Origin: Escherichia coli
GTDB lineage: Bacteria; Pseudomonadota; Gammaproteobacteria; Enterobacterales; Enterobacteriaceae
DNA length: 64,000 bases
Assembly (NCBI RefSeq): GCF_030013205.1
Contig: NZ_CP122648.1
Strand: one strand, 5' to 3'
Shown: piece after piece, positions 18,001 to 21,000 of the stretch
Numbering within the stretch: the first letter of the stretch is position 1
Layout of the letters: each line of letters opens with the position of its first letter
Position numbers: made by a program

Positions 18001-21000
18001 GAATAATCATAACTCCCTCTTTGATTGTTGATTGTTTCTACGTTGTGTTGATGAATGTTGTTAGGCATTGTGCTTAATTTTGATAAAAGCGGGTAGGTGT
18101 TATCTCCTTGCCCTTCCCGCTCTTATTTTTCATCTATGCTTATCCTAAAGCTCCTTATTTTGTCCGAAAACATTAAAGAGCCTTACACTGATAGTTATAT
18201 TTTATAACTATTTACTAACATCATTAAACTCTTATTTAATGACAGAAGTTAGTAACAGAATAATCTATTAAGTTGTTGTCAAAAAACTATCATCTGCATA
18301 GCGTTAGCCGCAAGTAGAGAGAGTTTAGTTAAGAATGGTGCAATAAACTTTGGAAATATTGATAGCAAAACTAGTTTTATAGAATGCGGATCTATAATCT
18401 TTGGTTGTAAAAACGATTTTCTGAAACGGTAGATTACTGTTGGTGTAGTTAATCCTTATTAAAAATTTAATCTGTGAGTAGATTGGAATAGTGATTCCTT
18501 AAAATCTGACTGGTGCATCCACACCATGAAAGATAGCAGTTGGCCACCGCGCCCCGAATAGATATTCCTGATTGATTCCGCATGTTTTCCTAAGAGCATG
18601 TTTTCAGGAATATCTGTTCACCCTTTAAACCTATCTTTAAGCATGTTTAATAAGCATTCTTAGAGATACGTTTAAAACCTCCTCAAGGTTTTACTTATCG
18701 CTGTGTATTGCCCGACACGTTAATAAATCCCCCTCGCTATTGTCAGATTGAACCTCTTATAGCCTGGGGGATTTATTAAATTCCAGCATAATGGAATCGT
18801 TATATAAATGAAACAAGAAATTATCCTGAAATATGGCAATGAAAAGTTAACACTAACTGAAGATGTGTTGAATGCTACAGCCTACGCGCTTGGCATCACT
18901 CCCACAGAATTAAAGAAACAGTGTGAACGTCTTTATAAGGCTGAAAGCAATAAACCATCTCACCAAGATTTGATTAATGCTAAAGCTCAACAAATCAAAC
19001 AATCTAAGGAAAAATAATGGCTATTTTAAAATTAAGCGATGTTTTCCCACATCGTAAAAGCATCACTGACGTAGTGAGCTATGCAACCGACCCTTACGCG
19101 GCTGTAGAAAGCAAAAAATTTGCAGCACTTGCACAAGATGTAACGTGCGGCGACCTCATTGATTCATCCGGCGCTAAATATGTTAGCGGCGCTGATGTTC
19201 TTGTCGTTGTGTCTGACTTCGTAACTGCTGATTCAAATAAAACAGTTAACGTGCTTCGTGCTAATGCCGGACTCGTTTGCATCAAAGCTGATGCCCTGAA
19301 TGCCGAAGGCGCTGTAAAAGAAGCTGCTATTGCAGCTCTCGCTGCTAAAGGCTTCCAGCTTGAAGGCTTCCACTCTGTTTTCACATCTTAAGAAGGAATA
19401 AATAATAATGATTATCGGAAATGAAGTGGTTGATCTTGCTCCACTGTTCGAATTAAACGACTCACGCAATTACCTACTGTCTACTCTGGATTTTACTGAT
19501 CCTGTGCCTGTAGAAAGTCACAAAGTGGCTGTTTCCCAGCTTATCGAGAGCAATGAATCTCTGTTCAACCATCCTACAAGCCGTTTTAGCTCTGAGCATA
19601 ACGTTACTAAGCGTGAGAACGGGGAAGAATGGCTGATTGAAATCCCTTACTTCCTGCGTGAAGACCTGATCAAACCGCAGGACGTGCAAGGCAAACGCAA
19701 AGCCGGAAGCTCTATTGAAGAAACACTGCCGGATCTGTATGCGGAATATATCGCTACACACAATGTTGCATTCCAGCGCACTAAAGAAAGCATCCTCGCG
19801 GCTTCTCTGTTCTCTGGCAAGACACATACCCCGAAAACTGACGATGTTCTGATCGACTACAGCACTCTGTTCGGTGTGTCTCCAATGACTGCAACCGTTG
19901 ACGCATCCAGCACCAACACAATGACCGTATTCAAGCAATTTGATCAGATGCATACGGATATGATTGCTAAGGCACAAAGCCAGGCTGCAACCATTGAGCG
20001 TGTTGTTGTGTTCTGTAAACCTGCGGCATTCAACGCTATTCGTTACAGCGTTGGCATGGTTAATGCGTTCCAGTATGCAAGCCCTGTAGACGATGCAAAC
20101 GTGGTGTTTAATGTGCGTTCTCTGCTGCCTGGTGTAACTACTTTCACCATTCCAGGAACTAACATTGACCTGATCAAAGTGACTGATCCGCTGCTGCTGG
20201 CACATATGACCGCTGACGCTGTAGCTATTCCTAAACTTGCTAAGGGGGCAGGTGTTTACCAAGCTATTTTTGGTGCGCCTTCCAGTTCATTCGATCTGCT
20301 GTCTCAAGGCGCTAAAGAGTATTACAGCTATGCTTTCGAATCGAATCGCGGCGACGCAGTGCACGTAGTGACCGAGAATAGCTCGCTTGTGGTTAACCAC
20401 GGTGTTGGCTTCTCTGTGCAGATCACAGTAGCGTAAAAAGTGTTAAAGACGTTCCCCTACGTCTGGAAATAATCGGGGCAATAAGGGTAAGGGATAATCA
20501 TATAAGCAAAATATGCGCTGTCTCTTGCACTTTTTGTTTTTCTACTGTCTACAAACCCAAATAAAAATATATATATGTGAGAGAAAACCAATGAATACAG
20601 AAAATTCACAGGCATTAATTCTTAAATCTGTAAAAGAACTGGCAGCTATTAGCGATGACTCAATAATCAATGTCAGTGCCTTATGCAGAATGCTTTCAAT
20701 TGATGCAAATAATGTGCGGCAGCGTGTGTTTCAGACTGGATGCAGCACTTTTGAAGCAATTACATACTACTGTTCTAAAAAACAATAATAAACAACAATC
20801 ATAATACAGGGAAACAATTAACATGTTAGAGCTAAACATCAGCCGCTTGTCAAACGTTGTCACCTTCGAAGTTAACCGACCATCATTAGAGAAAGCAAAA
20901 GCAGAAGTAGAAAAACTTCGTAAACAAATGGCGGCGGTGAAAGATATAGAATTGCGTGTTAAGACACATAAACAATCAACCGCTAGAGCAAAAAAAGACG

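What the first reader, a model, noticed from the sequence alone, without database searches (positions are those of the whole stretch)
18551..18775. Two perfect inverted repeats, each with a 32-nt spacer, upstream of the candidate capsid operon
AGATATTCCTGA/TCAGGAATATCT (12 bp) and TAAATCCCCC/GGGGGATTTA (10 bp) each enclose a 32-nt spacer within the 1-kb ORF-free region before the 18808 operon. Perfect long-range inverted repeats with matching spacing suggest paired protein-binding sites or structured RNA leaders controlling late-gene expression.
Basis: seen in the sequence. Interest (0 to 1): 0.4.

Follow-up and report, generated by a model that had tools for sequence, protein, structure and literature searches.

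The report
RNA hairpins gating a capsid operon
The two inverted repeats are real and are the stems of conserved RNA hairpins, the second of them terminator-like, at the end of a roughly 0.9-kb untranslated, heavily folded transcript in front of the capsid and tail genes of an uncharacterised mobile island of E. coli and related enterobacteria.

Summary
Both repeats exist as described. IR1 is 18560-18571/18604-18615. IR2 is really 14 nt perfect, at 18720-18733/18766-18779. They are unlikely by chance (P about 0.004). The shared 32-nt spacer is a coincidence: IR1's spacer is 32-40 nt in other variants, and IR2 extends inward to leave an 18-nt loop.

They are two of three consecutive hairpins in a 992-nt ORF-free stretch. 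A near-consensus sigma-70 promoter opens it (17829-17857). It ends 28 nt before the first gene of a capsid/tail operon. The host is an integrase-bearing island present in about 280-400 of 5,426 complete E. coli genomes.

Across E. coli variants the IR1 stem is rewritten at 10 of 16 pairs yet always pairs, and its loop motifs (GAUUCC, UCCUAAGAGC) barely vary. G-U wobbles favour the + strand, so this is RNA. IR2 is an intrinsic-terminator-like hairpin, canonical in most variants.

Relatives in other enterobacterial genera with unalignable sequence keep the same plan: strong promoter, 0.55-0.75 kb of structured RNA, a long hairpin with a CCUCCU-type loop, a terminator, then the capsid operon. No Rfam family matches.

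My best reading is a structured leader or ncRNA whose terminator gates late-gene expression. What triggers read-through is unknown.

The parts
17829..17857 (+). Promoter P1: TTGCAT, 17-nt spacer, TATAAT, starting 14 nt after the stop of the upstream 102-aa ORF. The inferred transcript starts near 17864 (AGGGGUAGAU...).
   Evidence: Read directly. The consensus scan reports an overlapping 10/12 match. Nine of the 12 other loci tabulated have TTGCAT or TTGACA, a 17- or 18-nt spacer and a TAnnnT hexamer at the same place. L002, L017 and L023 need reading by eye.
17836..17852 (.). O1: quasi-palindrome TATAACGATTTCATTAT (ATAAY-N6-RTTAT) inside the P1 spacer; operator-like.
   Evidence: 17 nt, 94% complementary to 18788-18804 (I5). 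Relatives carry their own version at both places.
17864..18340 (+). 5' domain of the untranslated RNA; nearly invariant among E. coli-type islands.
   Evidence: Window 17816-18340 (525 nt) is 94.8-100% identical in 15 loci, while the last 410 nt is 72.8-100% (alignment). The whole 927-nt RNA folds with z = -5.8.
18485..18550 (+). Three small hairpins upstream of IR1: GGAAU/AUUCC at 18485-18498; AUCU..UGGUG CAUCCA CACCA..AGAU at 18504-18534; GCAGU/ACCGC at 18536-18550.
   Evidence: RNAalifold and pair counts: helices 95-100% paired, with compensatory changes in two of the three hairpins.
18556..18619 (+). An internal loop carries GAUUCC (18574-18579). There is an inner stem, and the apical motif UCCUAAGAGC lies at 18588-18597.
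   Evidence: The 16 pairs are 100% paired in 5 distinct variants and 10 pairs changed on both sides; slid controls give 34-40%. All three stem types fold to the same shape. Loop motifs are conserved apart from one C-to-U change in L006.
18624..18676 (+).
   Evidence: I2. 19 pairs, 97.6% paired, 3 pairs changed on both sides and 4 on one side only, all G-U compatible. The + strand is much more stable than the - strand in variant B: -21.1 against -7.4 kcal/mol.
18720..18779 (+). IR2 hairpin, intrinsic-terminator-like: arms 18720-18740/18759-18779 with a CCCCC/GGGGG core. The loop motif AACCUCUUA (18751-18759) is invariant. The tail is U-rich (AUUUAUUAAAUU).
   Evidence: I3. The consensus terminator scan hits 18753-18770 on the + strand. 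There are compensatory changes at 2 pairs. Variants B and C read GGGGCUUUUUAUU.
18781..18804 (+). Region between the terminator and the ATG. A small hairpin, UUCC (18781-18784) with GGAA (18793-18796), covers the weak Shine-Dalgarno sequence. It overlaps O2, ATAATGGAATCGTTATA (18788-18804), the second copy of the operator-like palindrome.
   Evidence: RNAalifold pairs at columns 371-374/382-385, with two pairs changed on both sides. O2 is (I5, I15).
18808..24728 (+). Downstream operon: 69 aa, 124 aa, a lambda gpE-type major capsid protein (19408-20436), about 65-91 aa, a 607-aa TMP-like protein, then a Dit-like 225-aa protein. An IS3-family element interrupts it at about 22631-23961.
   Evidence: Pfam PF03864 at 1.1e-17 and phrog_16051. 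PF21821 Dit_like at 1.2e-27 and the transposase domains. Comparison with EC556.

Best explanation
IR1 and IR2 are the stems of two of three consecutive RNA hairpins at the 3' end of an untranslated + strand transcript of about 0.92 kb. The transcript starts at the near-consensus promoter P1 (17829-17857) and runs through the whole ORF-free region.

IR2 is an intrinsic (Rho-independent) terminator/attenuator that ends 28 nt before the first gene of the capsid/tail operon. No consensus promoter fits between it and the ATG. In this E. coli form of the island, RNA polymerase must therefore read through IR2 to express the operon. The hairpin acts as a gate on late-gene transcription, in the way tR' gates the late genes of phage lambda.

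IR1 is a long, conserved regulatory hairpin. Its stem sequence is free to change as long as it pairs. Its loops (GAUUCC, CUCCUAAGAGC) are conserved and pyrimidine-rich, so the loops are the functional surface, for a protein or for another RNA.

Shown here: the repeats, their covariation, the strand preference, and the conserved promoter / structured RNA / terminator / operon order.

Inferred: that P1 fires, that IR2 terminates, that read-through is regulated, and by what (a helper-phage or island antiterminator is the leading guess).
For: - **The repeats are real and improbable by chance**.
- **IR1 outer stem.** Five distinct E. coli variants form 16 of 16 pairs. Ten pairs changed on both sides. 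Slid controls pair only 34-40%. Three unrelated stem sequences fold into the same shape with the same loop motifs.
- **Middle hairpin, IR2 and three upstream hairpins.** 97.6% of cells are paired against 40-50% slid, with 8 pairs changed on both sides.
- **Strand.** In the IR1 outer stem every non-Watson-Crick position is G-U on the + strand. The + strand fold is more stable for 8 of 11 hairpin variants, for example -21.1 against -7.4 kcal/mol.
- **IR2 as terminator.** It has a GC core and a U-rich tail, is hit by the terminator scan, and reads GGGGCUUUUUAUUU in variants B and C.
- **No other promoter.** No sigma-70-like match on the + strand lies between 17858 and 18808.
- **Distant relatives.** Islands in Klebsiella, Serratia, Enterobacter, Cronobacter, Citrobacter and Dryocola have 39-61% identical capsid proteins and no alignable intergenic sequence. 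All keep a strong promoter, 0.55-0.75 kb without ORFs, and a canonical terminator before the operon. A CCUCCU-type hairpin is seen in most of them.
- **Structure in the second sequence group.** The whole region folds with 88.8% of cells paired (42-50% slid) and 39 pairs changed on both sides (8-15 slid). The + strand consensus is -86.9 kcal/mol against -65.0 for the - strand.
Against: - No transcript data: P1 activity, the RNA's ends and termination at IR2 are all inferred.
- In the window's own variant the U-tract after IR2 is poor (AUUUAUUAAAUU) and can pair with the A-rich 5' flank, so IR2 may be a weak terminator here.
- IR2 and one IR1 variant fold about equally well on either strand.
- The E. 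coli variants fall into only three main sequence types. The covariation therefore rests on few independent events and partly on mosaic recombination.
- A leader does not obviously need 0.9 kb of conserved structure.
- In the second sequence group, a copy of the operator plus a -10-like TATTAA lies downstream of the terminator. The operon could have its own promoter there.
- No antiterminator gene was recognised in the island.
Confidence: 0.6

Rival explanations
1. A stand-alone regulatory or structural RNA. The ORF-free region is a gene for a 0.55-0.9 kb structured non-coding RNA with its own job, such as immunity, titration of a helper factor, or action on ribosome-binding sites through its CU-rich loops. 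IR2 is simply its terminator. The capsid operon would be driven by a separate, activator-dependent promoter overlapping the O2 palindrome.
For: Structure with covariation spans the whole region, far more than an attenuator needs. The 5' 525 nt is 95-100% conserved among E. coli islands. Terminators are canonical, and in the Citrobacter/Cronobacter group they are tandem. In that group the operator plus a -10-like TATTAA(T) lies after the terminator at a sensible 25-45 nt 5'-UTR distance. No Rfam family matches.
Against: In the E. coli form only 28 nt separate IR2 from the ATG. The -10-like TATAAA (18803-18808) would place a start inside the first codons, so gene 1 could not be translated from such a transcript. 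There is no -35 match. The RNA is always adjacent to and co-oriented with the capsid operon in every lineage. Hairpin loops pair no better with their cognate ribosome-binding sites than with non-cognate ones: -7.1 against -6.9 kcal/mol.
Confidence: 0.25
2. DNA-level elements. The inverted repeats are double-stranded DNA sites: operators for a dimeric regulator, recombinase or invertase sites, or part of a packaging (cos/pac) or replication origin region.
For: Symmetric sites bound by dimers also keep dyad symmetry when they evolve. The island encodes a serine recombinase of invertase type and HTH proteins. The region lies directly upstream of the head genes, where lambda carries cos. Real operator-like palindromes occur nearby.
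Against: The arms are 16-21 nt with variable 32-40-nt interiors and nested inner stems. The IR1 stem mismatches are G-U compatible on one strand only. IR2 carries a T-run and is replaced in relatives by unrelated canonical terminators. The region is in one orientation and one piece in 271 E. coli records, so there is no sign of inversion. It shows no similarity to any of 50,697 phage records. Relatives swap the serine recombinase for a tyrosine one without changing the layout.
Confidence: 0.07
3. Incidental repeats. The palindromes are by-products of AT-rich intergenic DNA or of past duplication and have no function.
For: The region is AT-rich, and the equal 32-nt spacing that drew attention is coincidental.
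Against: P about 0.004 in shuffles. Pairing is maintained through complete stem replacement. The layout is conserved across genera.
Confidence: 0.03

Closest known systems
Phage lambda late control region: PR' promoter, 6S leader RNA, tR' terminator, read through under Q antitermination
   Same: A near-consensus promoter placed just after the preceding gene, a non-coding transcript ended by an intrinsic terminator, and late structural genes immediately downstream on the same strand. The capsid protein is of the lambda gpE family.
   Different: The leader is about 920 nt rather than 194 nt, and is extensively structured with covariation. No Q-like gene or Q-binding element was identified. No promoter-proximal pause element could be established. 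There is no sequence similarity to lambda or any phage record.
Leader-embedded antisense immunity RNAs: P1/P7 C4 RNA and satellite P4 CI RNA (Rfam C4 family; from my own knowledge of these systems)
   Same: A hairpin RNA is made from the leader of the very operon it controls. Its loop sequences can pair with downstream ribosome-binding regions. The outcome is premature termination, and P4 is also a satellite element.
   Different: No covariance-model match even at E up to 5. The loops are conserved while the stems vary, the opposite of heteroimmune P1 and P7. Loop-to-RBS pairing is generic rather than lineage-specific. The RNA is ten times longer.
Large structured bacterial ncRNAs often linked to phages and mobile elements (GOLLD, ROOL, HEARO, OLE; from my own knowledge)
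   Same: Size of 0.55-0.9 kb, many covarying helices, a location on a mobile element next to phage-type genes, and unknown biochemical function.
   Different: No Rfam model matches. It is restricted to Enterobacterales islands. It has a fixed position as the upstream neighbour of one operon, which suggests a cis role.
Ordinary Rho-independent terminators and transcription attenuators
   Same: IR2 has a GC-rich stem, a U-rich tail, and a position at the end of a transcription unit in front of a co-oriented operon.
   Different: The stem is unusually long (up to 21 nt arms) with a conserved 9-nt loop motif, AACCUCUUA. The U-tract is weak in the window's variant. No alternative antiterminator structure was found.

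Membership tests
Intrinsic (Rho-independent) terminator (IR2) | GC-rich stem-loop in the RNA | tested here: met
   CCCCC/GGGGG core within 21-nt arms; -25.7 kcal/mol on the + strand.
Intrinsic (Rho-independent) terminator (IR2) | Run of U directly after the stem | tested here: inconclusive
   The window variant has AUUUAUUAAAUU, only 5 T in the first 9, and fails my 6-of-9 filter, although the simple scan accepts 18753-18770. Variants B and C have CUUUUUAUU(U).
Intrinsic (Rho-independent) terminator (IR2) | Transcription actually stops there | not testable with these tools
   Needs Term-seq, Northern blots or in vitro transcription.
Lambda-type Q antitermination module (PR'-qut-tR') | Strong promoter followed by a terminated leader upstream of the late genes | tested here: met
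   TTGCAT-17-TATAAT, then 0.9 kb, then IR2 28 nt before the capsid operon.
Lambda-type Q antitermination module (PR'-qut-tR') | A Q protein and its binding element at the promoter | tested here: inconclusive
   No Q-like domain in island proteins. A palindrome (O1) does sit in the promoter spacer, where lambda's Q-binding element lies, but nothing links it to Q. A helper-encoded Q cannot be excluded.
Lambda-type Q antitermination module (PR'-qut-tR') | Sigma-70-dependent promoter-proximal pause element (-10-like hexamer in the first 25 nt or so) | tested here: inconclusive
   TAnnTA-type hexamers follow the conserved GGGU start in all lineages. The sequence is AT-rich and most lack the critical final T.
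C4/CI-type leader antisense RNA | Match to the Rfam covariance model | tested here: not met
   No hit at E up to 5 in 13600-19000.
C4/CI-type leader antisense RNA | Loop sequences specifically complementary to the downstream ribosome-binding site | tested here: inconclusive
   GAUUCC/GGAAUC is a 6/6 match in the window and CCUCCU/AGGAGG in Klebsiella. However, cognate duplexes (-7.1) are no better than non-cognate ones (-6.9 kcal/mol).
Lambda N-type nut site (boxA + boxB) | boxA consensus CGCUCUUA followed by a short boxB hairpin | tested here: not met
   Only CCUCUUA-like motifs are present (18751-18759 and variant equivalents), lying inside hairpin loops, with no boxB-type 5-bp stem and GAAAA loop. 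The consensus is from my own knowledge.
RfaH ops element | GGCGGTAGnnTG in the leader, conserved among relatives | tested here: not met
   The window has AACGGTAGATTA at 18424-18435, 7 of 10 specified positions. Relatives read GCGATAGAT or AAATAGAT. The segment is one strand of a covarying helix in the second group.
Invertible DNA switch (Hin/Gin or Fim type) | Inverted repeats flanking a segment found in both orientations | tested here: not met
   All listed E. coli matches are single-piece and co-linear; 271 records cover at least 80% in one place. IR1 and IR2 enclose only 32 nt.
Any described RNA family (Rfam 15) | Covariance-model hit at the gathering score | tested here: not met
   None in the window. 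None in 11 related loci apart from tRNAs and one int-alpA RNA elsewhere.

The most novel reading that the evidence does not exclude
The ORF-free region encodes a previously undescribed class of large (0.55-0.9 kb), multi-helix non-coding RNA. It would be specific to an undescribed family of capsid- and tail-tip-encoding, integrase-bearing islands (probable phage satellites) of Enterobacterales. IR1, with its conserved CU-rich loops, would be a functional surface, and IR2 the terminator. The RNA would do more than attenuate in cis. For example, it could serve as the island's immunity or timing device by sensing a helper-phage factor.
Probability: 0.3. Interest if true: 0.75.

Novelty: new variant of a known kind. 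Interest (0 to 1): 0.58.

Why it matters
Large structured bacterial RNAs are rare, and how phage satellites time their own structural-gene expression is known for only a few families. Here a very long, covariation-supported RNA sits exactly at the switch between the replication/regulation genes and the capsid/tail genes of an island. The island is carried by about 5-7% of complete E. coli genomes, including ST131, O104:H4 and ETEC strains, and I found no description of it. If the terminator gate is opened by a helper-phage factor, this would be a compact and testable example of a satellite borrowing lambda-style antitermination logic. If the RNA acts on its own, it is a new ncRNA class. Either way, the hairpin stems offer ready-made compensatory-mutation experiments.

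Tried and rejected
- **Known RNA families.** The Rfam gathering scan of the window, a permissive scan of 13600-19000, and a scan of 11 related loci found nothing relevant. The only weak hit was RAGATH-7 at 19 bits against a threshold of 112.
- **Phage similarity (cos or helper mimicry).** No match by megablast or blastn against 50,697 phage records.
- **Distant homologues by genome scan.** The single genome-contig scan with the capsid protein returned only two near-identical loci. Relatives had to be reached through the protein search and exact-sequence look-ups instead.
- **Metagenome pattern scan.** GATTCC-N5-30-TCCTAAGAGC gave 120 loci. None was homologous by blastn, so all were chance matches and the pattern was too loose.
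- **Homology between sequence groups.** nhmmer and blastn found nothing significant between the E. coli-type region and the other lineages. The architecture is shared, but common descent of the RNAs is unproven.
- **Anti-Shine-Dalgarno hypothesis for the IR1 loops.** Cognate and non-cognate duplex energies are indistinguishable, so I keep it only as a possibility.
- **RfaH ops, nut boxA and invertible switch.** Each fails a defining feature (see the membership test).
- **IR1-loop/IR2-loop kissing.** UAAGAG and CUCUUA are 6 bp complementary and nearly invariant in E. coli variants, but no counterpart was seen in other lineages. This stays unresolved.
- **Neighbouring small proteins as regulators.** The 102-aa upstream ORF gives only coiled-coil noise in the PDB. 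The 69-aa and 124-aa products have no hits. An AlphaFold model of the 69-aa family (pLDDT 70.6) found no significant structural neighbour; the best was E = 0.78, with weak helix-turn-helix-like pieces.
- **Small ORFs in the region.** None exceeds 46 aa, and gene calling reports none in the corresponding gap of the related loci.
- **Literature.** Five full-text searches found no description of this island or RNA.
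Full report
**Observation.** AGATATTCCTGA (18560-18571) pairs with TCAGGAATATCT (18604-18615) across 32 nt. The second repeat is longer than reported. Its perfect arms are 14 nt, TTAATAAATCCCCC (18720-18733) and GGGGGATTTATTAA (18766-18779), also 32 nt apart. IR1 extends outward to 16-nt arms with one G-T position. IR2 extends inward to 21-nt arms, leaving an 18-nt loop.

In 2000 dinucleotide-preserving shuffles of the 992-nt ORF-free stretch, two or more perfect repeats of at least 10 nt occurred with frequency 0.004, and one of at least 12 nt with frequency 0.01. The stretch 17816-18807 has no ORF above 46 aa.

**Context.** The window is E. coli chromosome. Positions 11386-22630 and 23962-32336 are 99.96-99.99% identical to strain EC556. 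The finding lies in an island of about 12-14 kb that other strains carry next to tRNA-Gly (glyU, beside the ETT2 secretion locus) or tRNA-Leu. The island contains, in order:
- a small serine recombinase;
- about 1.7 kb without ORFs;
- small ORFs and an HTH/Rep-like protein;
- the 992-nt ORF-free stretch;
- an operon for 69-aa and 124-aa proteins, a lambda gpE-type major capsid protein, a 607-aa protein matching a tape-measure PHROG, and a Dit-like tail protein;
- a tyrosine integrase.

The 4-kb region around the finding occurs in 401 of 5,426 complete E. coli genomes. The ORF-free stretch alone occurs in 281, always unannotated. Capsid homologues are confined to Enterobacterales. I found no paper describing the element.

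**Conservation and covariation in E. coli.** Fifteen E. coli-type loci were compared. Window 17816-18340 (525 nt) of the ORF-free stretch is 94.8-100% identical. The last 410 nt, which holds the repeats, is only 72.8-100% identical and falls into three main sequence types that recombine as a mosaic.

In that variable part the IR1 outer stem is completely rewritten between types:
- GAAUAGAUAUUCCUGA
- GAAUAUCAGAUCUUAG
- GAAUAGCAGGAUCGUA

Yet all 16 pairs form in all five distinct variants, and 10 pairs changed on both sides. Sliding the partner by 1-3 columns drops pairing to 34-40%. Each type folds into the same shape: a 16-17 bp lower stem, an asymmetric internal loop carrying GAUUCC, a short upper stem, and an apical UCCUAAGAGC. 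Those loop motifs are conserved, apart from one C-to-U change in L006.

The middle hairpin, IR2 and three small upstream hairpins together are 97.6% paired, against 40-50% slid, with 8 pairs changed on both sides. The caveat is that few independent lineages underlie these counts.

**RNA or DNA, and which strand.** In the IR1 outer stem, every non-Watson-Crick position is G-U when read on the + strand. On the - strand these would be A-C mismatches. Of 11 hairpin variants, 8 fold better on the + strand, some by a wide margin (-21.1 against -7.4 and -28.0 against -18.3 kcal/mol). IR2 and one IR1 type are roughly symmetric.

IR2 has a CCCCC/GGGGG core and a U-rich tail, and the consensus terminator scan picks it up on the + strand. 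In types B and C the tail is the canonical GGGGCUUUUUAUU. In the window's own type it is the weaker AUUUAUUAAAUU.

Arms this long, nested inner stems, interiors that vary from 32 to 40 nt and a T-run do not fit protein operators.

**Transcription unit.** Fourteen nucleotides after the stop codon of the upstream ORF lies TTGCAT, 17 nt, TATAAT (17829-17857). No other sigma-70-like match on the + strand occurs before the operon's ATG at 18808. IR2 ends at 18779, only 28 nt upstream of that ATG.

The inferred RNA (about 17864 to about 18785) folds with z = -5.8. Its reverse complement is also stable, at z = -5.6.

**The same plan in distant relatives.** Islands were examined from Klebsiella, Serratia, Enterobacter, Cronobacter, K. 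aerogenes, Citrobacter and Dryocola, plus one IMG/VR contig. Their capsid proteins are 39-61% identical to the window's. They have the same gene order and an ORF-free gap of 546-740 nt at the same place.

Their gap sequences are not alignable to the E. coli type, but each has:
- TTGACA, a 17- or 18-nt spacer and TAnnnT (TAnnAT in most) directly after the upstream ORF;
- a conserved GG(G)U start in most lineages;
- one or two canonical intrinsic terminators, of unrelated sequence, within about 200 nt of the operon.

Most also have a long hairpin whose loop carries a CCUCCU(U/A)A-type motif.

Five alignable members of this second group give a consensus fold of 156 pairs. Of the cells, 88.8% are paired against 42-50% slid, and 39 pairs changed on both sides against 8-15 slid. 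The + strand consensus energy is -86.9 kcal/mol against -65.0 for the reverse complement. That structure was derived from the same alignment, which inflates the paired fraction, but the excess of double changes is substantial. No Rfam family matches any of these regions.

**Most likely mechanism.** I read IR1 and IR2 as RNA hairpins in the 3' domain of a long untranslated transcript from P1. IR2 is its intrinsic terminator. Because the E. coli form leaves no room for a promoter between IR2 and the ATG, expression of the capsid/tail operon should depend on read-through of IR2. That makes a terminator gate, like lambda PR'-6S RNA-tR' in front of the late genes (lambda sequence checked).

IR1 is a conserved hairpin whose stem only has to pair and whose conserved pyrimidine-rich loops are the likely contact surface.

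The sequence features, covariation, strand bias and conserved architecture are shown here. Promoter activity, termination, regulated read-through and the identity of the factor are inferred. I put about 0.6 on this reading.

**Rivals.**
- **Stand-alone ncRNA, about 0.25.** The region would be an ncRNA gene with IR2 as its terminator, and the operon would have its own activator-dependent promoter. The sheer extent of conserved structure favours this. So does a copy of the promoter-spacer palindrome plus a -10-like element downstream of the terminator in the second group. Against it, for the window, a start there would fall inside gene 1.
- **DNA-level sites (operators, recombinase sites, cos or ori), about 0.07.** These are disfavoured by the one-strand wobble pattern, variable interiors and T-runs. 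All 271 near-full-length copies are single-piece and co-linear, and there is no phage similarity.
- **Chance, about 0.03.** This is contradicted.

**Comparison with known systems.** The closest functional analogue is the lambda late-gene antitermination module. The promoter/leader/terminator/late-gene order is met. A Q protein, its binding element and a pause element are not established.

The P1 C4 / P4 CI leader-antisense paradigm resembles the CU-rich loops. However, the covariance model does not match, and loop-to-RBS pairing is no better for cognate than for non-cognate pairs.

A nut site, an RfaH ops element and an invertible switch each fail a defining feature. In particular, the ops-like CGGTAGAUU at 18426-18434 is not conserved in relatives, and its counterpart there is one strand of a covarying helix.

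As a large structured RNA on a mobile element it recalls GOLLD, ROOL and HEARO, but it belongs to none of them.

**Other things seen.** An operator-like quasi-palindrome (ATAAY-N6-RTTAT) lies in the P1 spacer (17836-17852) and again just before the ATG (18788-18804). The two copies are 17 nt long and 94% complementary. The second group has its own version at both places, so the two sites co-vary.

A small hairpin (UUCC 18781-18784 / GGAA 18793-18796) with two compensated pairs covers the weak Shine-Dalgarno sequence of gene 1.

**Verdict.** The hairpins themselves are of a known kind: a terminator and a regulatory stem-loop. The long structured RNA they belong to, and the island family that carries it, appear undescribed.

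Noticed in passing
window 17836-17852 and 18788-18804: The same operator-like quasi-palindrome (ATAAY-N6-RTTAT) sits in the spacer of promoter P1 and again just before the ATG of the first capsid-operon gene (17 nt, 94% complementary, 935 nt apart). Relatives have their own version (GTAACG-N5-GTTAT; in Enterobacter GTAAC-A/T-rich-GTTA) at both positions, so the two sites co-vary. This suggests one DNA-binding regulator touches both ends of the ORF-free region.
   Followed up: partly
window 18624-18676: A third hairpin lies between the two reported repeats (26-nt arms, 85% complementary, 1-nt gap). It has compensatory and G-U changes across variants and is far more stable on the + strand.
   Followed up: yes
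window 17816-18340: The first 525 nt of the ORF-free region is 94.8-100% identical in all 15 E. coli-type loci, although the flanking modules are mosaic and the capsid proteins drop to 73-79% identity. The reason for this extreme conservation is unknown.
   Followed up: partly
window 14169-14327 (within the ORF-free stretch 13666-15357): Four 17-bp palindromes of the form TGTAACGnnnGGTTACA, spaced about 33-55 bp apart, plus other inverted repeats (for example 14454-14483/14702-14731), lie in the island's other long ORF-free stretch between the recombinase and the early genes. This may be an origin or an operator array.
   Followed up: no
window 18021-18035; L007 columns 207-213 of alignment A1: The TTGATTG heptamer is tandemly repeated. 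One strain (FORC_069) has an extra copy.
   Followed up: no
window ~22631-23961: An IS3-family insertion sequence (HTH_Tnp_1 ORF of 136 aa plus an rve ORF of 301 aa; IS2-like) interrupts the 3' end of the 607-aa TMP-like gene relative to strain EC556.
   Followed up: partly
window 1-11403: ARAGORN finds no tRNA in the window. Only the last 18 nt of the tRNA-Gly that flanks the island in EC556 are present (from 11386), and everything upstream differs from EC556. This may be a second element inserted in tandem at the same attachment site.
   Followed up: partly
window 13114-13665; L017 968-1585, L019 1138-1689, L020 2166-2726: The small serine recombinase (invertase-like) of the E. coli island is replaced at the same position by a 183-205-aa tyrosine recombinase in Klebsiella, Serratia and Enterobacter relatives. 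In each case a long ORF-free stretch follows.
   Followed up: no
window 20823-22646 and 24051-24728: The so-called capsid operon also encodes a 607-aa protein matching a tape-measure PHROG and a Dit-like distal tail protein (PF21821, 1.2e-27). The island therefore carries tail-tip parts as well as a capsid protein, an unusual set for a small integrative element.
   Followed up: partly
window 18588-18597 and 18751-18759: The IR1 apical motif UAAGAG and the IR2 loop motif CUCUUA are perfectly complementary over 6 nt and conserved in the E. coli variants (one C-to-U change lies in IR1's adjacent UCC, in L006). A loop-loop contact is possible, but no counterpart was seen in other lineages.
   Followed up: partly
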